Shown: positions 16,401 to 23,932 of the stretch, piece by piece
Numbering within the stretch: the first letter of the stretch is position 1
How the letters are laid out: each line of letters opens with the position of its first letter
Source of the DNA: Escherichia phage IME08
Length of the DNA stretch: 64,000 bases
Reading direction: 5' to 3' (one strand)
Sequence record: NC_014260.1
Made by a program: the position numbers and the translations under genes
The notes under the pieces: model-generated
Databases searched by the model: none
What the model was told of the DNA's origin: nothing
Seen by the model: only the letters and a program-made list of their open reading frames with translations

Positions 16401-18524
16401 CTACATTTTGAATTTATTTGGCAGAGCAGAGATATCCAAAGATGCAGCAAGGATTTCCATAGCCTCGTTGCTTTCAGAAACAGATTCACTAACCAAGAAC
16501 TGTTTAAAGCCATCCATCGGACGAACTTCACCGGTTTCCATCAGATGGTCGCCGTCATAAACAGATTCACTGAGCTCTGAAGGAGACATCACAGTAGCTT
16601 CCATAAGATATTTGTGAGATACCCTATCATTCATAGCAAAAGCCGCTACTTTATCAACCTTCATCAATAATCCGCGCGGAAGGATAATTTCTGCTTCTTC
16701 AGCGTATTCTGTAAGGTCACCAGGAGCGATAACTTTAACTGCTTCAGCACCTCGAATAACCATACCAATTTCAGCAATTCTATCCGCAGGGCCTTCAGGT
16801 GCAATTGGATTACCAAACTCGTCTTCTTCCCATTCTACCTCTTCATCGTCGACTTCACCTACATCAGATGAACTACCGCTAGCCAATTTAAACAACTCAT
16901 CAGCGGAGGATAAAGAACCTTCACCACCAACAAAAACGGCTTGGTTGTCGAGGGCCATATAATTTTTACCGAATTCACCAAAGATGTTAGGCTTTAGTGA
17001 GGCGGACACAAAGTTCTTAAAGTAAAATGTTTTGTTATCGATATTATGACGCAGAATTTTGTATGGCAAATCCTGACCACGATACAAAATAGTACCCTTA
17101 GGAAGTTTAATACCCTTAGTAAATGCCGAGTCTAAATCCTTAATCAATCTAATAGCCGTTGTATTGTTTTCGGATTCAGGTTTACCTAAAAGGAATAAGT
17201 TCATAGGAGCATATTCAGCTGCGCAATATTCAATAATAGCATTGCTTTCGTCTTTGGTTAGGTCCTTAGGTTTAATGAGCTCGCCTGAATAAGCATATGC
17301 ATCACCAATAGAATCGTTAATCAGTTTATAAACGGCTTCCATAGCGAAAGCAATTCGAGATGCCTTTTCTGAAGGGGAGCCATTAAAACGGGCACTCAGG
17401 TTATTAACAATTCTCTTAATAATATCCAGACTATTGGTAGTATTGATTTGCGAAAGGCCGCTTAAAAGTCTATCGACTTCTGTATTAAAAAATGCCATAT
17501 TTTTAGAGTAAATTTCAAACCCTTGTTTATCTCTATTAGCATAATTTAGTTTAAATTTACTATCAGTCATTAAAGCATGTGTGAGAGCAATAGTGTATCT
17601 AAAGTTAGCAAGGTCCTCGCTCTTAGATTTAAACTGAGAAGCCTGGCGCATTTTGGTAATAGCACCTTTTTTAAAGTTCTGACTAATCTGTTCAATACCT
17701 TCGTTCTCAGGGCCTTCGGCAGTGTGAACCGGTACAGAAGCTTCAAACTCGTTATAAACCTGCAATTCTTTAGGGGACAAAGTTTCAGGCTCAGCAGTAG
17801 AATACTGCGCGGCAGCCGCCATACGACGGGAAATCTTAGTACGAGTAATGACAGCCTTATCGGTACGTTTCTCTTCAACCTGTGCAATAGATGCCGCTAC
17901 GGCTTCGACCTTACTTACGGCCTGGCCGGTTTTCTTAGAAACATACACTTCGCCGACTTTAGAATCGACTTTGGTATAAAGGTCGGCATCAATTTCAGGC
18001 ATGCCTTTGATATCTTCGATATTGGAACCACGACGTACTAAAAGAACGTAGGTATGTTTTCCACTGAACTGGAACATGCTATCAACAACTTTAAACTTAC
18101 CGCCAGTACGAGCCATCGCTAAACGTGCCAATACGCGCTGAACAGTAGGACCCTTACCTTTCATTTTCTTGGTAGGGAAACGGAATAAAACTGCATCCAT
18201 TTTAAGTTTGTTTACTTGTTCGTATACAGTATCGAAAATGGTATTCAGTGTACCAAGTGGGTCAGAACCAAGGCCACCCTTAAGTTCAGCCGGAGCACCC
18301 TTGCTTGACAAACTCATTAGAATAACATGAATGTATTTGTCGCCTGGCTTAACCATTTTAATAGCGTCTCCTTGAGACGCATAAGATACCATACGAGCAA
18401 CCAGGTTATCATTACCTGGTGCATGGATAGAGAAAATCTGTGGAATACCGGAACCCGGTTTAAGATTTGTTACTGGATAGTTTTTAGCGGAATCACTATC
18501 AAAAACCTCGTTTAAATTTTCCAT
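16401..18524 (-). CDS. alt: Alt-like ADP-ribosyltransferase, paralog A
   Basis: 707 aa; R-S-E ART triad context (YRGQ…, FVSAS, EAEIILPRG); conserved N-terminus shared with paralog B. Confidence 0.85.
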   Translation of the reverse strand: MENLNEVFDSDSAKNYPVTNLKPGSGIPQIFSIHAPGNDNLVARMVSYASQGDAIKMVKPGDKYIHVILMSLSSKGAPAELKGGLGSDPLGTLNTIFDTVYEQVNKLKMDAVLFRFPTKKMKGKGPTVQRVLARLAMARTGGKFKVVDSMFQFSGKHTYVLLVRRGSNIEDIKGMPEIDADLYTKVDSKVGEVYVSKKTGQAVSKVEAVAASIAQVEEKRTDKAVITRTKISRRMAAAAQYSTAEPETLSPKELQVYNEFEASVPVHTAEGPENEGIEQISQNFKKGAITKMRQASQFKSKSEDLANFRYTIALTHALMTDSKFKLNYANRDKQGFEIYSKNMAFFNTEVDRLLSGLSQINTTNSLDIIKRIVNNLSARFNGSPSEKASRIAFAMEAVYKLINDSIGDAYAYSGELIKPKDLTKDESNAIIEYCAAEYAPMNLFLLGKPESENNTTAIRLIKDLDSAFTKGIKLPKGTILYRGQDLPYKILRHNIDNKTFYFKNFVSASLKPNIFGEFGKNYMALDNQAVFVGGEGSLSSADELFKLASGSSSDVGEVDDEEVEWEEDEFGNPIAPEGPADRIAEIGMVIRGAEAVKVIAPGDLTEYAEEAEIILPRGLLMKVDKVAAFAMNDRVSHKYLMEATVMSPSELSESVYDGDHLMETGEVRPMDGFKQFLVSESVSESNEAMEILAASLDISALPNKFKM

Positions 18525-18527
18525 TAT

Positions 18528-20612
18528 TTACCCTTGGATGAATTTTTCTGGGATGTCATAGAGGTCTATGCATGAAGCCAAAAGAGGCAGTACATCAAAC
18601 CGTGTAGATTTGACAAATGAATCAAAAGATACAGGGCTTTCGGAAGTATCGAAGTCATCTTGATATACGACCAACTCGCCGGTTTCCATTAGTACGTCAC
18701 CATCATACACCACAGATTCTTGAAGCTCATCTGTCGTCATAACTTCAGCTTGGATGAGTTTTGTATTATTAGATGTTGTTCCGTCATTATTAGAAGCATC
18801 TGTTATTTTATTAACTTTGACCATCAATCCGCGCGGTAGAATAACTTCAGCTTCTGTTGCTATTCCGAGACTTCCTGGATATACAACATTGACTTTATGA
18901 GCCCCATCAATCGCCCATCCTATTTGAACTTTAACGTAATCAGGATTTTCTTTATACGCTCTTATTTCATTAGGATTAATAGTTATTCCTTCTTCATTTT
19001 TATCGACTGTCAATTCATCGCGAACTTCCGGTTCTAAAAGACCAATACCAGCGTGTGTAACACCAAATCGTCCAAAAATGATAGGGGTTAAAGAAGTAGA
19101 TACAAAATTTCTGAAATAGAACACTTTATTTTTAACTAGTGCTTCGTATATAGGAGCAGTCATACTCTGTGCACGATAAACTGTGATGCCTTCTGGTATA
19201 CGGTCACCGTTTTCAAAAGCAGAATCCAAATTATTGACTGCAGATTCAATAGATTTTTCGTTCATTACATCATAGTTATGAGGATTATAGCGTCCTAAAA
19301 GAAGATTATTGATGTCTGTATATCCAGAACCACAATATTCTCTGATGCCGCGCTTTTGTGATGGGGTATATTTAGAGCCCTCACGAGCAATAGTAATATC
19401 GACCATAATACCGCCGCCCACACCAGCAAAACTATATACGCGTTTTTTAATGAATTTGGTCTTGGCTGCTTTCCACTTGGACTCGGTCAATTCATTCCAG
19501 AGGTCGTCGGGTTGGCCTTTACGAGTTTTGTTATGCTGGGCCAACCATTCGCCTTTGTATTCTTCGAAAACGGTATTAATAACAGAGGCATATTTTTCTA
19601 GAGCTTTAACAGATGTCAAAGGTTCGTTTTTGATGGCTGTAAGAATTTTCTCTTTAATTTTCTCTTGGATTTCACCTATACCATGAAGAGGAAACATTTT
19701 ATAATCGTAATGCAACTCTTCAGCAGTGCCTTCGGCTACTATATTAGCCACCTTATTTTTAGCCGCAGGAGAATTGTTATTAGTAACCATTTCCTGAGCC
19801 TCAGGGATTAATGGAGCTGTTGCCGGTTTATTAAAATCTACGGCAGTTGCTTCATATTTCTTAAACAGTTCACTTTCATTACGATAAGATTCTAACGATT
19901 GACTTGCTGCAATGGCACGACGAGAAATCTTAGTCTTGGTTATAACCATTTTATCAGTGCGACGTTCTTCAACTTTAGCAATACTGCCGGCAATAGCAGT
20001 TTCTTTAGTAACCTGCACACCTTCTTTTTTAGAAATATAAACTTCACCGACATCAGAATCTACCTTAGTGTATAATTCGGCATTAATTCCTGGCATACCT
20101 TTGATATCTTCGATATCAGCTTGTTTACGAACTACTAAGATATAAGTATGTTTACCAGTAAATTGGTACATAGCCGGAACTACTTTAAAACGTCCACCGG
20201 TTTTCTGTGCTACCAAACGTTGGATAATACGTTGGACAATAGGGCCTTGTCCTTTCATTTTCTTGGTAGGAAAACGGAACATGATGGCATCCATACGAAG
20301 CTTTTTAACTTGTTCGAATACTACGTCGAAAATGGTATTAATGGCATCAATAGGAGTAGGGCCTAAGCCGCCTTTAAGTTCAGCAGGAGAACCTTTAGCC
20401 GAAAGGCTCATAAGGATAACGTGGGCATATTTGTCACCTAATTTAACTTGTTTAATGGCATCGCCTTCAGAAGCGTAGGACACCATACGCGCCACTAATT
20501 GAGACTCTACGTCTCCAATCTTCCAAATCTGTGGTACTTTAAGTTTAGGGTTCAAGTTTACTGTAGGCAGTGTGCCTTCGGACTCAAACACTTCATTTAA
20601 TTGTTCGGTCAT
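18528..20612 (-). CDS. Alt-like ADP-ribosyltransferase, paralog B
   Basis: 694 aa; same architecture (YRAQ…, FVSTS, EAEVILPRG); divergent central segment. Confidence 0.85.
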   Translation of the reverse strand: MTEQLNEVFESEGTLPTVNLNPKLKVPQIWKIGDVESQLVARMVSYASEGDAIKQVKLGDKYAHVILMSLSAKGSPAELKGGLGPTPIDAINTIFDVVFEQVKKLRMDAIMFRFPTKKMKGQGPIVQRIIQRLVAQKTGGRFKVVPAMYQFTGKHTYILVVRKQADIEDIKGMPGINAELYTKVDSDVGEVYISKKEGVQVTKETAIAGSIAKVEERRTDKMVITKTKISRRAIAASQSLESYRNESELFKKYEATAVDFNKPATAPLIPEAQEMVTNNNSPAAKNKVANIVAEGTAEELHYDYKMFPLHGIGEIQEKIKEKILTAIKNEPLTSVKALEKYASVINTVFEEYKGEWLAQHNKTRKGQPDDLWNELTESKWKAAKTKFIKKRVYSFAGVGGGIMVDITIAREGSKYTPSQKRGIREYCGSGYTDINNLLLGRYNPHNYDVMNEKSIESAVNNLDSAFENGDRIPEGITVYRAQSMTAPIYEALVKNKVFYFRNFVSTSLTPIIFGRFGVTHAGIGLLEPEVRDELTVDKNEEGITINPNEIRAYKENPDYVKVQIGWAIDGAHKVNVVYPGSLGIATEAEVILPRGLMVKVNKITDASNNDGTTSNNTKLIQAEVMTTDELQESVVYDGDVLMETGELVVYQDDFDTSESPVSFDSFVKSTRFDVLPLLASCIDLYDIPEKFIQG

Positions 20613-20837: not shown

Positions 20838-22343
20838 TTATAGTCCAGTTTGAGACCAATCACCGAATACATCTTCAAATGTATCAGCTTCTGTTTTATC
20901 GAAACGCCAACCTTTAATGATTGGAAGGAAAATACCTACAGTATCTGTACGTCCTTTAGAATGAACCCAACCATTACATTCACAGTCAGCAATACGTCCA
21001 ATCAACTTACCTTCACGAGCTTGTTTCATAAGAAGTTCACGGTCTAAATCAGGACGGTCTTCCAATGGAATCAATACCTTTTTACCTGATTTATCTTTCT
21101 TATGGGTGGTATCTTTAAAGCCTGAACCACAGTCACTTGTAATTCGTCGACAACGTGATACCAACTCGACCCCACCTAGTTTGTTAGGGTCCTTCGAGTG
21201 TTCATAATAACCTACTACTTCTAAAGCGATATCGATTACTTCTTTGAACTTGATAAGATTCTTAGAACGGCGGTTTTCCCAGTAGGAGTCCATGTTCTTA
21301 AGGATAATGCCTTCCAGACCTTGGTCGACATATTTTTTATAAACGACTTTAGCTTCTTCAAGATTATTAACCCATTGCGTTTCGATAGGCTCGACACGTG
21401 TAAAGCCTTCAGCCATTTGTACTAATGCCGCTAAACGAACATCGTATTTTTGACCTTTAATTTTGCCTTCAGAATAAACTTCATCCAGTGGAACAAAGTC
21501 CCATGCCTGTAATACCATACCATCGGCTTCAGCCGGAGTAATAGTTCCTTGAAGAGCCTTGTTAGCCAAGCCGTTTGAAGTAGAACGATCAGCGACAGTT
21601 TGGAATTCCTTAGCCTTACTTAATTCAGGAAGTTCCTCATCAAACATACTAAACAAATCATTAGATGCTTTAGGTTCTACTTTAGGAGTATGGTAAACTA
21701 ATTCACCATCAATCATAACCCCATTAGGATGGCGTTGTCGAGCTTCTTCGGTCATTTTAATAAGTTCGGCTGCAAGCTTAGTAAGCCCTTGATATTCATT
21801 ACCACCACGAGTAAGGAATGTCACCCCATCGTTACGAACTTCGGCAAAACAACGAGCACCGTCAGCTTTTAATTGAGCAAACGCTGGCCATTTAATATTT
21901 TTCTTAATTAAAGCTTCATCATAAGAACTAGCTAACATTTGAGGTTGTTCAGGGATTAAACCTTTCCAAACCTTGTTAGCAATAGAAATCGATGCACCGC
22001 ATTCAAGGTCACGCATCATTACACGACGTAATACCTCGGCATCCGAGGCCTTAGCATCAGCAATGATTTGAGCCAGTTCTTCAATAGCCGCATTACCCGT
22101 AATCTTACGGGTGGCTAATGTGAACTCTGCGAAATCAAGAAGGTCTTCAAGAGTAATCATACCAAAGGATTGAGACGTAAATCCAGGTTCTGGCCACTTT
22201 TTAATGCCATAGTTTAAACGACGGGTATAAGCCATACGATAAACACGTTTCAGAAGCTCATCGTCCTTTTCACGAGCAATAATGGCTTCTTTAGCTTTAG
22301 TAGAATCAATAGCAGCAATTTCGTTTAAGATATCTAAAATCAT
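20838..22343 (-). CDS. 30: ATP-dependent DNA ligase gp30
   Basis: Start at internal ATG (MILDILNEIAAI…); KADGARC adenylation motif; colinear with recalled T4 ligase. Confidence 0.9.
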   Translation of the reverse strand: MILDILNEIAAIDSTKAKEAIIAREKDDELLKRVYRMAYTRRLNYGIKKWPEPGFTSQSFGMITLEDLLDFAEFTLATRKITGNAAIEELAQIIADAKASDAEVLRRVMMRDLECGASISIANKVWKGLIPEQPQMLASSYDEALIKKNIKWPAFAQLKADGARCFAEVRNDGVTFLTRGGNEYQGLTKLAAELIKMTEEARQRHPNGVMIDGELVYHTPKVEPKASNDLFSMFDEELPELSKAKEFQTVADRSTSNGLANKALQGTITPAEADGMVLQAWDFVPLDEVYSEGKIKGQKYDVRLAALVQMAEGFTRVEPIETQWVNNLEEAKVVYKKYVDQGLEGIILKNMDSYWENRRSKNLIKFKEVIDIALEVVGYYEHSKDPNKLGGVELVSRCRRITSDCGSGFKDTTHKKDKSGKKVLIPLEDRPDLDRELLMKQAREGKLIGRIADCECNGWVHSKGRTDTVGIFLPIIKGWRFDKTEADTFEDVFGDWSQTGL

Positions 22344-22353
22344 AATCACCTCA

Positions 22354-22632
22354 TTAGTCATGGATTCTATTATAAGCCACATCGGCCAAAAGCAAGTCTA
22401 ATCGCTTATGATAAGAGAACACAAATCTCATTCGCCCGTCAGATTTAATTTTGGACATAAAATGGACATAAATGAATCCCTGTTCGACGCATTCGCGCCA
22501 AACAGGATGGTCTTTAGCCGGATTTACATCAAATGAGTAATCATGATTCACATGACGAATAAACTGGTTTACATGACCATAATCCATTGTAGTGGTAGGA
22601 CCATAGTCTGAAATTGTATGAACTACAAACAT
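22354..22632 (-). CDS. hypothetical protein (30.1-like)
   Basis: ORF with internal start MFVVHTIS…; T4-like position. Confidence 0.45.
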   Translation of the reverse strand: MFVVHTISDYGPTTTMDYGHVNQFIRHVNHDYSFDVNPAKDHPVWRECVEQGFIYVHFMSKIKSDGRMRFVFSYHKRLDLLLADVAYNRIHD

Positions 22633-22633
22633 A

Positions 22634-23272
22634 TTAACCTCGAGCAATCCATTCAACTGCGGCATTATTACGAAGGGATTCGATTGCTGCGATATCGTCC
22701 CATGAATTAACCTTTACGGCTAAATTAGGTTTAAAGTCACGTTCACCACGAGCTAACCAATAAACTTGGATATCCATGAGAACATTAGATGCTGCATCGC
22801 AGTGGTGAGCCAAATCATCAACATAAAACTTAATACGTTTACCGTATGTATTTTTAGCTCTTATGAACAAGTCTTCTTTTGATTCTGAATGACCACACAT
22901 CAGAATCTCCTTGAATGCGCCAGGGAACAAAGCATTCAAATTGAATTGTCTATTCAGCAGGGCATCAATTGAGTCGCCTAGCGCAGTCACGGCTACAAAA
23001 TCGAAGTCTTTTTTGAGCTTGTTGATATGTTTTAATGCGTCCATGTAAGGAGACAGATAACGAATAAAATCCGACTGATTATATTTCTCGATTAAACGAG
23101 CGCCCAATTCATTATCACAATTAAACAGCTCGCCTGGAGATAAGAAACGTTCGTCCTGAATCATATTCAAAATATGTTCTAAAGGCAAATTATATTTCTG
23201 TGCGAAATAAGGCAAGCCGGACTGCCAACTTAAACATACTCCATCGATATCTGTTAAGATAACTGGTTTCAT
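22634..23272 (-). CDS. HAD-superfamily phosphatase-like protein (30.2-like)
   Basis: 212 aa; N-terminal LTDIDGV (DxDG nucleophile motif) and distal Asp-containing motif. Confidence 0.55.
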   Translation of the reverse strand: MKPVILTDIDGVCLSWQSGLPYFAQKYNLPLEHILNMIQDERFLSPGELFNCDNELGARLIEKYNQSDFIRYLSPYMDALKHINKLKKDFDFVAVTALGDSIDALLNRQFNLNALFPGAFKEILMCGHSESKEDLFIRAKNTYGKRIKFYVDDLAHHCDAASNVLMDIQVYWLARGERDFKPNLAVKVNSWDDIAAIESLRNNAAVEWIARG

Positions 23273-23736
23273 AATAAATCTCTCAATTTGTTTAGGATGT
23301 CGATAAACTCTTTTTCAGTTAGTATTGTATCACATTCTGTAAGGTGGCTTGCCATCGAATGCTTTAAAACTTTACCTTTAGTGGCTTGTAACGCATCGCG
23401 GAATCCTTTGTTCTGGAGCGCTGCTTCAAAATACGCACTTTCGTAAAGCTCTTTCCACGCTGTGGAATATCTTGAAAACGGAGTTCCAAGCCAGAACAAC
23501 GTACCACGGTCCTGAGCTCTAGCATAAGCTCGTCCAGCTTGCTGAGCGGCCAACCCGGACATCCCAAATATACGTCTTTGTTGTTCAACATTTTTCACCT
23601 TACACCCTTGGAGGAATCCTTCGAGTCCACCAAATTGGATACCATCCATAACGAAAGGCCATTTAGCAAAGTTACTTAATGCGCATGATGGCCACGGAAA
23701 GTTGCTTCTGATTTCTAACTCAGACATCTTTGACAC
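23269..23736 (-). CDS. NADAR (YbiA-like) domain protein (30.3-like)
   Basis: 155 aa; LSNFAKWPFVMDGIQFGGLEGFLQGCK parallels E. coli YbiA FSNFAAWPIKVDGKTWPTSEHYFQAQK (recalled). Confidence 0.5.
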   Translation of the reverse strand: MSKMSELEIRSNFPWPSCALSNFAKWPFVMDGIQFGGLEGFLQGCKVKNVEQQRRIFGMSGLAAQQAGRAYARAQDRGTLFWLGTPFSRYSTAWKELYESAYFEAALQNKGFRDALQATKGKVLKHSMASHLTECDTILTEKEFIDILNKLRDLL

Positions 23737-23932
23737 TTACTACATCAACGTTTGCCCAATGTCCATAACTAGGTAGACGGTCTTTAATAGATAATCCACC
23801 GTCAGATTTCAGCATTTTAATTGTTTTAGTATATGGTTCAATATTTCGGGCCCATGGACTCCCGTCTGTTACGCGATAAGTCACTTCGACCATTTCCGTA
23901 CCTAATAATTTCTGAATCAATTTCTTAACCAT
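23720..23932 (-). CDS. hypothetical small protein
   Basis: 70-aa ORF in early cluster. Confidence 0.4.
   Translation of the reverse strand: MVKKLIQKLLGTEMVEVTYRVTDGSPWARNIEPYTKTIKMLKSDGGLSIKDRLPSYGHWANVDVVSVKDV

What the first reader, a model, noticed from the sequence alone, without database searches (positions are those of the whole stretch)
22634..23736. NADAR-like and HAD-like proteins encoded next to DNA ligase
The 155-aa ORF matches the YbiA/NADAR signature (SNFAKWP…DG…F…E.F.QG.K), and the neighbouring 212-aa ORF has a HAD DxDG nucleophile motif (LTDIDGV). NADAR enzymes remove ADP-ribose from guanine in DNA, so this early-gene pair could repair or pre-empt DarT-type ADP-ribosylation of phage DNA. 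Placement beside ligase and kinase/phosphatase fits a DNA/RNA damage-reversal theme.
Basis: partly seen in the sequence, partly recalled or inferred. Interest (0 to 1): 0.45.

Follow-up and report, generated by a model that had tools for sequence, protein, structure and literature searches.

The report
T4-type AdfN and HAD neighbour
These are the T4 genes 30.3 and 30.2. The first is AdfN, an already characterised enzyme that strips ADP-ribose off phage DNA to defeat the bacterial DarTG1 defence. The second is a phosphatase-fold neighbour of unknown role that a published genome-wide screen in T4 shows is not needed for that defence.

Summary
Both ORFs are real genes in a T4-like (Dhakavirus-type) phage window that is syntenic with T4 from alt to pseT.

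**The two genes do not act as a pair against DarTG1.** In T4 transposon sequencing, 30.2 insertions are neutral under DarTG1 (log2FC -0.12), while 30.3 insertions are lost (-7.25).

**A residual lead remains.** NADAR-HAD fusions occur in pT24-like phages, and an NT5C-type HAD lies next to the NADAR in one Vibrio phage.

The parts
23269..23727 (-). gp30.3 / AdfN orthologue: a NADAR-fold DNA ADP-ribosylglycohydrolase of 152 aa. The mechanical ORF extends to a GTG at 23736.
22634..23272 (-). gp30.2 orthologue: a C1-capped HAD-superfamily phosphatase-like protein of 212 aa. It lacks the roughly 85-aa C-terminal tail of T4 gp30.2.
23720..23932 (-). gp30.4 homologue (70 aa), directly upstream of adfN. 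Its stop overlaps the adfN start by 8 nt.
   Evidence: phrog_2042 at E 6.4e-32. 40% identical to T4 gp30.4. T4 30.4 is the only other significant gene in the DarTG1 transposon screen (log2FC -1.79, adjusted p 0.014). This may be a polar effect.
22354..22632 (-). gp30.1 homologue (DUF3045), downstream of gp30.2. Context only.
   Evidence: Pfam PF11243 at E 6.2e-16. tblastn to T4 30.1. T4 30.1 is neutral under DarTG1.
20841..22343 (-). ATP-dependent DNA ligase gp30. Context only.
   Evidence: Pfam DNA_ligase_A_M at E 1.5e-23. 62% identical to T4 gp30 over residues 1-487.
23364..23591 (-). Nested alternative-frame ORF (75 aa) inside adfN, the counterpart of the annotated T4 30.3'.
   Evidence: The ORF is listed. 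T4 annotates 30.3' as internal translation in another frame. It has the same length and 61% identity. Only 16 of 84 NADAR genes examined carry such an ORF.

Best explanation
The 152-aa protein is the Dhakavirus-type orthologue of T4 AdfN (gp30.3). It is an orphan, antitoxin-like NADAR enzyme made early in infection. It cuts the N-glycosidic bond between ADP-ribose and guanine in phage DNA that the host DarT1 toxin has modified. This releases ADP-ribose and lets replication proceed on DarTG1-carrying hosts. It does not bind or block the toxin.

The 212-aa protein downstream is gp30.2, a magnesium-dependent HAD-family phosphomonoesterase with a helical C1 cap. Such a cap predicts a small-molecule substrate, most plausibly a nucleoside monophosphate. 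It is co-transcribed and translationally overlapped with adfN, but it is not part of the anti-DarT1 mechanism.

Shown here: orthology, fold, conserved catalytic residues and HAD motifs.
Shown by others for the T4 orthologues: activity, the DarTG1 phenotype, and the dispensability of 30.2.
Inferred: that the window proteins behave like their T4 orthologues, and that gp30.2 is a nucleotidase.
For: **Orthology and synteny**
- Every gene from alt to pseT has a T4 counterpart in the same order.
- gp30.3 is 88% identical to T4 AdfN without gaps.

**NADAR fold and catalytic residues**
- A family profile hits YbiA at E 0.005.
- E36, Q40 and H123 are invariant, and K43 nearly so, across relatives down to 36% identity.
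- The C-terminal helix (model residues 141-154), whose loss weakens the RB69 allele, is intact (PMC11825919).

**Function of the T4 protein**
- It hydrolyses guanine-ADPr but not thymine-ADPr in vitro (PMC11125620).
- Purified protein removes ADPr from DarT1-modified DNA.
- E36A and K43A mutants are weakened.
- No two-hybrid interaction with DarT1 was seen.
- In T4 transposon sequencing, 30.3 has log2FC -7.25 under DarTG1.

**gp30.2**
- HAD motifs I-IV are invariant or nearly so.
- pLDDT is 94, with a four-helix cap between motifs I and II.
- The nearest sequence family is NT5C.
- 6 of 36 distant relatives hit NT5C.
- Many BFVD structural neighbours are labelled 5' nucleotidase.
- T4 30.2 is non-essential (72/72 TA sites hit). 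It is neutral under DarTG1 (log2FC -0.12) and in M9 versus LB (-0.10).
Against: - No experiment exists for this phage's own proteins.
- The Pfam NADAR model PF08719 itself gives no hit.
- The N-terminal 20 residues of the NADAR model are poorly predicted.
- T4 AdfN does not rescue uninfected E. coli from DarT1 and only weakly helps T5 or Bas25. Something specific to T-even infection is therefore missing from the simple picture.
- For gp30.2, no HAD or NT5C model reaches its curated threshold (13.4 bits against 24.8), so the substrate is a guess.
- Three lines of context argue that the HAD may not be wholly unrelated to NADAR function: the tight ATGA overlap with adfN, NADAR-HAD fusions in pT24-like phages, and an NT5C-type HAD next to the NADAR in Vibrio phage XZ1.
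Confidence: 0.85

Rival explanations
1. The two genes are a functional module. gp30.2 is the unidentified T-even factor that AdfN needs, or it processes what AdfN releases or encounters. Candidates are ADP-ribose-derived phosphates or ADP-ribosylated nucleotides.
For: - The stop and start codons overlap by 4 nt.
- A gp30.2-type HAD lies within 3 kb of the NADAR in 26 of 85 loci examined, and directly abuts it in most of them.
- A single 292-aa protein in Tenacibaculum phage pT24, and two relatives at about 50-55% identity, fuse a gp30.3-type NADAR to a capless HAD with all motifs kept.
- Vibrio phage XZ1 has a different, NT5C-family HAD (E 2.9e-12) overlapping the NADAR gene's end.
- AdfN-T4 works fully only during T-even infection.
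- Bacterial ADP-ribosylglycohydrolase operons are often coupled to phosphatases, including a HAD 5' nucleotidase (PMC9503650).
Against: - T4 30.2 insertions are neutral under DarTG1 (log2FC -0.12, p 0.61, 71 sites), while 30.3 insertions are lost.
- Most divergent gp30.3-type NADAR loci have no HAD nearby. Their neighbours are homing endonucleases, helicases, ligase, dUTPase, SLOG-like proteins, PDDEXK proteins and unknowns.
- In several T4-like genera both genes exist but lie more than 3 kb apart.
- Co-occurrence within one viral family is expected from shared descent alone.
Confidence: 0.1
2. gp30.3 mainly targets something other than host-modified phage DNA. Candidates are soluble ADP-ribose derivatives used as immune signals, riboflavin-pathway N-glycosides as for YbiA, or ADP-ribosylation made by the phage's own Alt-type transferases encoded nearby.
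For: [quoted passage not shown] They noted expression alongside ARTs in T4-like phages (PMC9503650).
- Two Alt paralogues lie 3 kb away.
- The best structural match is YbiA.
- DHFR-NADAR fusions exist.
Against: - There is direct in vitro DNA de-ADP-ribosylation.
- There is a complete, specific DarTG1 phenotype for the T4 orthologue.
- 30.3 insertions are neutral without DarTG1 and in minimal medium.
Confidence: 0.05
3. gp30.2 is a nucleic-acid end-healing 3'-phosphatase that works with the adjacent DNA ligase, like the HAD domain of T4 Pnkp.
For: - The ligase lies two genes downstream.
- One divergent NADAR locus has a PNKP-type HAD neighbour.
Against: - gp30.2 has a helical C1 cap inserted between motifs I and II. 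From general knowledge of HAD enzymes, such a cap closes over small substrates, whereas Pnkp is capless.
- The phage already encodes PseT, 89% identical to T4's.
- The closest sequence family is NT5C.
Confidence: 0.05

Closest known systems
T4 AdfN (gp30.3), anti-DarT factor NADAR (Johannesman et al. 2025, PMC11825919; Toxins 2024, PMC11125620)
   Same: 88% identical over the full 152 aa. Same position between 30.4 and 30.2. Same catalytic E36, K43 and H123, and an intact C-terminal helix.
   Different: 18 substitutions. It comes from a Dhakavirus-type phage rather than a Tequatrovirus. It has not been tested experimentally.
DarG1-type NADAR antitoxin of DarT1-NADAR toxin-antitoxin systems (Geobacter lovleyi NADAR, PDB 8bat)
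   Different: - There is no adjacent DarT gene, so it is an orphan.
- Only 12% identity.
- It has His in the last strand where DarT1-linked NADARs have Asp.
- It lacks the N-terminal extension.
- T4 AdfN cannot replace DarG1 in uninfected cells.
E. coli YbiA (PDB 2b3w), founding NADAR/YbiA-fold protein
   Different: YbiA has Glu in the last strand instead of His. It sits in a LexA-controlled host operon. It does not protect against DarT1 in cells.
NT5C family 5'(3')-deoxyribonucleotidases (Pfam PF06941; PDB 2jao, 6g2n, 3bwv)
   Different: The score is below the family threshold (13.4 against 24.8 bits; E 0.12). The substrate is unknown. No phenotype has been found for T4 30.2.
NADAR-HAD fusion protein of Tenacibaculum phage pT24 (YP_009876668.1)
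   Same: It combines a gp30.3-type NADAR (PF08010, E 5.8e-45) with a HAD domain. These are the same two activities that are adjacent in the window.
   Different: It is one polypeptide. Its HAD part is short and capless, and is not detectably homologous to gp30.2 (hhalign probability 0.2%). It is found in an unrelated jumbo phage.

Membership tests
NADAR superfamily (YbiA fold) | [quoted passage not shown] | tested here: met
NADAR superfamily (YbiA fold) | Match to the Pfam NADAR model PF08719 | tested here: not met
   No PF08719 hit at E<=1. Instead the protein matches the separate Pfam family PF08010 Phage_30_3 at E 1.4e-66. A family profile reaches YbiA at E 0.005.
NADAR superfamily (YbiA fold) | Conserved catalytic Glu and Lys that contact ADP-ribose (E36 and K43 in T4 AdfN) | tested here: met
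   Both are present in GLEGFLQGCK. E36 is invariant and K43 nearly invariant across 13 relatives down to 36% identity. Their roles are from PMC11825919.
NADAR superfamily (YbiA fold) | [quoted passage not shown] | tested here: met
   H123 (LKHS) is invariant. It lies in model strand 123-127 of the 155-aa numbering. The rule is from PMC11125620.
NADAR superfamily (YbiA fold) | Hydrolysis of guanine-linked ADP-ribose on DNA | not testable with these tools
   Shown only for the T4 orthologue.
AdfN (phage gp30.3 clade, anti-DarTG1) | Orthology to T4 30.3 in sequence and position | tested here: met
   88% identity over 152/152 residues. Flanked by 30.4 and 30.2 as in T4.
AdfN (phage gp30.3 clade, anti-DarTG1) | Full-length allele with the C-terminal helix, unlike the truncated, weak RB69 allele | tested here: met
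   The ORF runs to residue 152 and aligns to the end of T4 AdfN. A helix is predicted at model residues 141-154. The RB69 truncation is described in PMC11825919.
AdfN (phage gp30.3 clade, anti-DarTG1) | Confers resistance to DarTG1 during infection | not testable with these tools
   Shown for T4 by deletion and complementation and by transposon sequencing.
DarT-NADAR toxin-antitoxin system | NADAR gene paired with a DarT ADP-ribosyltransferase gene | tested here: not met
   The neighbours are 30.4, 30.2, 30.1 and ligase. The only ART domains nearby are Alt-type PF03496 protein ARTs about 3 kb away.
HAD superfamily phosphatases | Rossmannoid HAD core fold with cap | tested here: met
HAD superfamily phosphatases | Four catalytic motifs: I DxDx(T/V), II S/T, III K, IV DD | tested here: met
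   D8, D10, G11, K132, D152 and D153 are invariant in 29 sequences of 38-85% identity; motif II T96 is conserved in at least 90% of them. D, D, K and D also persist in 36 distant relatives.
HAD superfamily phosphatases | Match to a curated HAD profile above its threshold | tested here: not met
   Only NT5C at 13.4 bits against a cut-off of 24.8. No NCBIfam hit. Distant relatives do hit PF00702, PF13419 and PF06941.
NT5C 5'(3')-deoxyribonucleotidase family | Profile match and the nucleotide-binding cap aromatic after motif I | tested here: inconclusive
   E 0.074 and E 0.12 to 2jao, with W16 aligned to Phe. 6 of 36 distant relatives hit NT5C, best E 8.3e-06. That this Phe stacks on the base is recalled from knowledge of the enzymes and was not tested here.
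NT5C 5'(3')-deoxyribonucleotidase family | Dephosphorylation of (deoxy)nucleoside monophosphates | not testable with these tools
   No biochemical data on gp30.2 were found in the paper library.

The most novel reading that the evidence does not exclude
Phage gp30.3-type NADARs and HAD phosphatases form a recurrent two-step module that the DarTG1 / E. coli K-12 screen did not probe. The linkage takes three forms: gene overlap in T-even-like phages, an NT5C-type HAD in the same position in a KVP40-like phage, and true fusion proteins in pT24-like jumbo phages. The phosphatase would clear a phosphorylated product or substrate of de-ADP-ribosylation, for example ADP-ribosylated nucleotides or ADP-ribose breakdown products. 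Alternatively, it would matter against other DarT variants or hosts.
Probability: 0.12. Interest if true: 0.45.

Novelty: already known. Interest (0 to 1): 0.15.

Why it matters
It matters little as a discovery. The anti-DarT role of the T4 30.3 family was published in 2024-2025. This window simply carries an intact orthologue, which predicts that the phage resists DarTG1-type defence.

The useful results are corrections:
- The HAD neighbour should not be annotated as part of the anti-DarT mechanism.
- The gene start should be moved to the ATG at 23727.

The small open question left over is what gp30.2-type phosphatases do, and why a NADAR is fused to a HAD domain in some jumbo phages.

Tried and rejected
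- **Direct Pfam NADAR match:** none at E<=1.
- **Single-sequence search of PDB sequences with gp30.3:** nothing. With gp30.2, only noise and a weak dNT hit.
- **NCBIfam:** no hit for 30.1-30.4.
- **AlphaFold-database fold library:** not available.
- **gp30.2 as the missing T-even cofactor of AdfN:** attractive from the gene overlap, the fusion and the XZ1 neighbour. I rejected it as the main explanation after reading the T4 transposon data.
- **A general NADAR-HAD neighbourhood rule:** tested on 85 loci with gp30.2-based HMMs and with Pfam scans of 57 plus 10 neighbour proteins. It holds only in subsets.
- **A regular expression for HAD motifs** was too strict and is uninformative. phmmer with the XZ1 and pT24 HAD domains found no further copies among the fetched loci.
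- **30.3' as a conserved overlapping gene:** a nested ORF is present in only 16 of 84 NADAR genes, mostly close relatives. I treat it as unproven.
- **Literature on gp30.2:** none found.

Full report
**What is there**

The window region 16.4-30.5 kb is collinear, gene for gene, with the T4 early region from alt to pseT: alt (two paralogues here), alt.1, 30, 30.1-30.9, rIII, 31, cd, cd.1-cd.4 and pseT (T4 annotation). By nucleotide similarity the closest records are Dhakavirus-type coliphages (IME341, WG01, Bp7, QL01) at 93-95% identity.

The finding's two ORFs are on the minus strand as stated. They are the orthologues of T4 30.3 and 30.2. gp30.3 is 88% identical over 152/152 residues. gp30.2 is 74% identical over the first 194 residues.

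Two details need correcting. First, the 155-aa ORF listed mechanically starts at a GTG. Homologues, including T4, start at the ATG at 23727, giving 152 aa. That ATG overlaps the stop of the upstream 30.4 homologue by 8 nt. Second, the window's gp30.2 (212 aa) lacks the roughly 85-residue C-terminal tail of T4 gp30.2 (278 aa). The 30.3 stop and the 30.2 start overlap as ATGA.

**Is gp30.3 a NADAR?**

The Pfam NADAR model (PF08719) does not match at E<=1. The protein instead belongs to the separate Pfam family PF08010, 'Bacteriophage protein GP30.3' (E 1.4e-66).

A profile of nine family members reaches E. coli YbiA in the PDB at E 0.005.

E36 and K43, which contact ADP-ribose, and the phage-specific His123 in the last strand are all present. 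They are conserved in relatives down to 36% identity from Proteus, Acinetobacter, Aeromonas, Rhizobium, Vibrio and Tenacibaculum phages. The C-terminal helix is intact.

**This is already known**

The literature tools show that T4 gp30.3 has been listed as a phage NADAR, with His as the distinguishing last-strand residue. The purified protein hydrolyses guanine-linked but not thymine-linked ADP-ribose on DNA (PMC11125620).

Johannesman et al. (PMC11825919) renamed the gene adfN. They mapped DarTG1 resistance of T-even phages to it, and showed that ectopic AdfN-T4 rescues RB69, whose own allele is truncated. They also showed that E36A, K43A and the C-terminal truncation weaken it, that purified protein removes ADP-ribose from DarT1-modified DNA, and that it does not bind DarT1. 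It is specific for guanine (DarT1) and gives no help against DarTG2.

A genome-wide transposon screen of T4 confirms this. Under DarTG1, 30.3 insertions fall by log2FC -7.25 with adjusted p 0 (bioRxiv 10.1101/2025.11.20.689424).

**What is gp30.2?**

In 29 homologues of 38-85% identity, D8, D10, G11 (motif I), K132 (motif III) and D152-D153 (motif IV) are invariant, and motif II T96 is conserved in at least 90% of them. W16, S18, R108 and the N111-L-N113 block are also invariant.

No curated model passes threshold. The nearest is NT5C, the 5'(3')-deoxyribonucleotidase family (E 0.074, 13.4 bits against a cut-off of 24.8). A family profile gives E 0.12 to 2jao, with W16 opposite the Phe that follows motif I.

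An exhaustive profile search finds 1273 cluster representatives. Of 36 distant ones scanned, 10 hit PF00702, 8 hit HAD_2 and 6 hit NT5C. None carries a NADAR domain. BFVD structural neighbours are largely labelled 5' nucleotidase or HAD.

I conclude that gp30.2 is a genuine HAD phosphomonoesterase. Because of its cap it probably acts on a small molecule, and a nucleotide is the best guess. That last step is inference.

**Do the two genes work together?**

Evidence for a link:
- The genes overlap by 4 nt.
- Their distributions across phage records are almost the same: 1509 against 1446 records, with near-equal counts per host genus.
- A gp30.2-type HAD lies within 3 kb of the NADAR in 26 of 85 loci examined.
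- In Vibrio phage XZ1, a different HAD protein that passes the NT5C threshold (E 2.9e-12) overlaps the end of the NADAR gene. It is followed by a calcineurin-like phosphoesterase.
- In Tenacibaculum phage pT24, a single annotated 292-aa protein has a gp30.3-type NADAR domain followed by a short capless HAD domain (DFDST, CTT, DK, LLDD). Two further proteins at about 50-55% identity keep the fusion and every motif.
- The literature notes that AdfN-T4 is fully active only during T-even infection and may need another T-even protein.
- ADP-ribosylglycohydrolase operons in bacteria are often coupled to phosphatases, including a HAD 5' nucleotidase (PMC9503650).

Evidence against a link is stronger for the specific claim made.
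- In the T4 screen, 30.2 has 71 TA sites. Its insertions are neutral under DarTG1 (mean 271.5 to 249.8, log2FC -0.12, p 0.61).
- 30.2 is non-essential on K-12 (72/72 sites hit) and neutral in M9 versus LB (-0.10).
- Only two genes are significant under DarTG1: 30.3 and the upstream 30.4 (log2FC -1.79, adjusted p 0.014). The 30.4 effect may be polar, because its stop overlaps the 30.3 start.
- In most divergent loci the NADAR has no HAD neighbour. The adjacent proteins are homing endonucleases, helicases, DNA ligase, a PNKP-type kinase-phosphatase, dUTPase, a SLOG/DprA-like protein, PDDEXK, ASCH, a second PF08719 NADAR, or unknowns.
- In several T4-like genera both genes are present but lie more than 3 kb apart.

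The pairing in this window is thus best explained by inherited T4 gene order. A modest residual possibility of a functional link remains, under conditions not yet tested.

**Mechanism**

The most likely mechanism, with the status of each step, is as follows. Early in infection the phage makes AdfN (inferred from the T4 gene order). Host DarT1 ADP-ribosylates guanines in phage DNA and blocks replication (literature). AdfN hydrolyses the ribose-guanine N-glycosidic bond using E36, K43 and H123 and releases ADP-ribose (shown for T4; the residues are shown here to be conserved). Replication then proceeds. gp30.2 is made from the same transcript and dephosphorylates a small phosphomonoester, perhaps a nucleotide (inferred). 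It has no measurable role against DarTG1 (shown for T4).

**Comparison and novelty**

The window's gp30.3 passes every testable feature of the NADAR superfamily except a match to the Pfam PF08719 model itself. It also passes the testable features of the AdfN clade. It is not part of a DarT-NADAR toxin-antitoxin pair, since no DarT gene is adjacent.

gp30.2 passes the fold and motif tests for the HAD superfamily. It fails the curated profile thresholds, and its assignment to NT5C is inconclusive.

Nothing here is new in kind, so I rate the finding as already known and of low interest. The only mildly new observation is the recurrent NADAR-HAD linkage, including true fusions, which I could not find discussed in the papers read.

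Noticed in passing
window 23720-23932 (-): This is the 30.4 homologue (70 aa), which overlaps the adfN start. In the published T4 screen, 30.4 is the only gene besides 30.3 that is significantly depleted under DarTG1 (log2FC -1.79, adjusted p 0.014). It could be a polar effect or a helper protein. The window's copy is only 40% identical to T4 gp30.4, whereas the adjacent AdfN is 88% identical.
   Followed up: partly
window 23364-23591 (-): A 75-aa ORF in another frame inside adfN corresponds to the annotated T4 30.3' ('internal translation'). It has the same length and 61% identity. A nested ORF of at least 60 aa occurs in only 16 of 84 NADAR genes examined, mostly close relatives, and is absent from three close ones. 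Evidence that it is coding is weak.
   Followed up: partly
L003 4001-4879 (Tenacibaculum phage pT24); proteins P0284, P0285, P0286: A single protein fuses a gp30.3-type NADAR to a short capless HAD phosphatase domain. The fusion is conserved in three proteins at about 50-55% identity, with all catalytic motifs of both domains kept.
   Followed up: yes
L004 4449-5998 (Vibrio phage XZ1): The NADAR gene is followed, with overlap, by a 169-aa NT5C-family HAD (E 2.9e-12) and then a calcineurin-like phosphoesterase (E 2.8e-08). This amounts to a small cluster of phosphatases next to the NADAR. No second copy of this arrangement was found among the fetched loci.
   Followed up: partly
proteins P0389 and P0398: Dihydrofolate reductase (PF00186) is fused to a gp30.3-type NADAR in metagenomic proteins of 275 and 317 aa. 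One lies on a 246-kb contig.
   Followed up: no
window 16401-18524 and 18528-20612 (-): There are two tandem full-length Alt-type ADP-ribosyltransferase paralogues (707 and 694 aa; 32% and 47% identical to T4 Alt). T4 has one alt gene plus the short alt.-1 and alt.-2 remnants of a duplication.
   Followed up: no
window 22634-23272 (-) versus L001 7475-8311: gp30.2 homologues share the roughly 195-aa HAD core but carry very different C-terminal tails, with total lengths of 196-347 aa. T4 has an extra tail of about 85 aa rich in aromatic residues and Pro, which the window's protein lacks.
   Followed up: no
PMC11125620, methods: The paper lists its T4 NADAR construct as 'gp30.3; residues 1-208'. 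However, T4 gene 30.3 encodes 152 aa. The discrepancy is unexplained and may reflect tags or a typing error.
   Followed up: no
IMG/VR loci L027-L086: gp30.3-type NADARs are widespread in large metagenomic phage contigs of up to 424 kb, with very varied neighbours. These include a second PF08719-type NADAR, a SLOG/DprA-like protein, an RlaP RNA-repair nucleotidyltransferase, DNA ligase and a PNKP-type kinase-phosphatase.
   Followed up: partly
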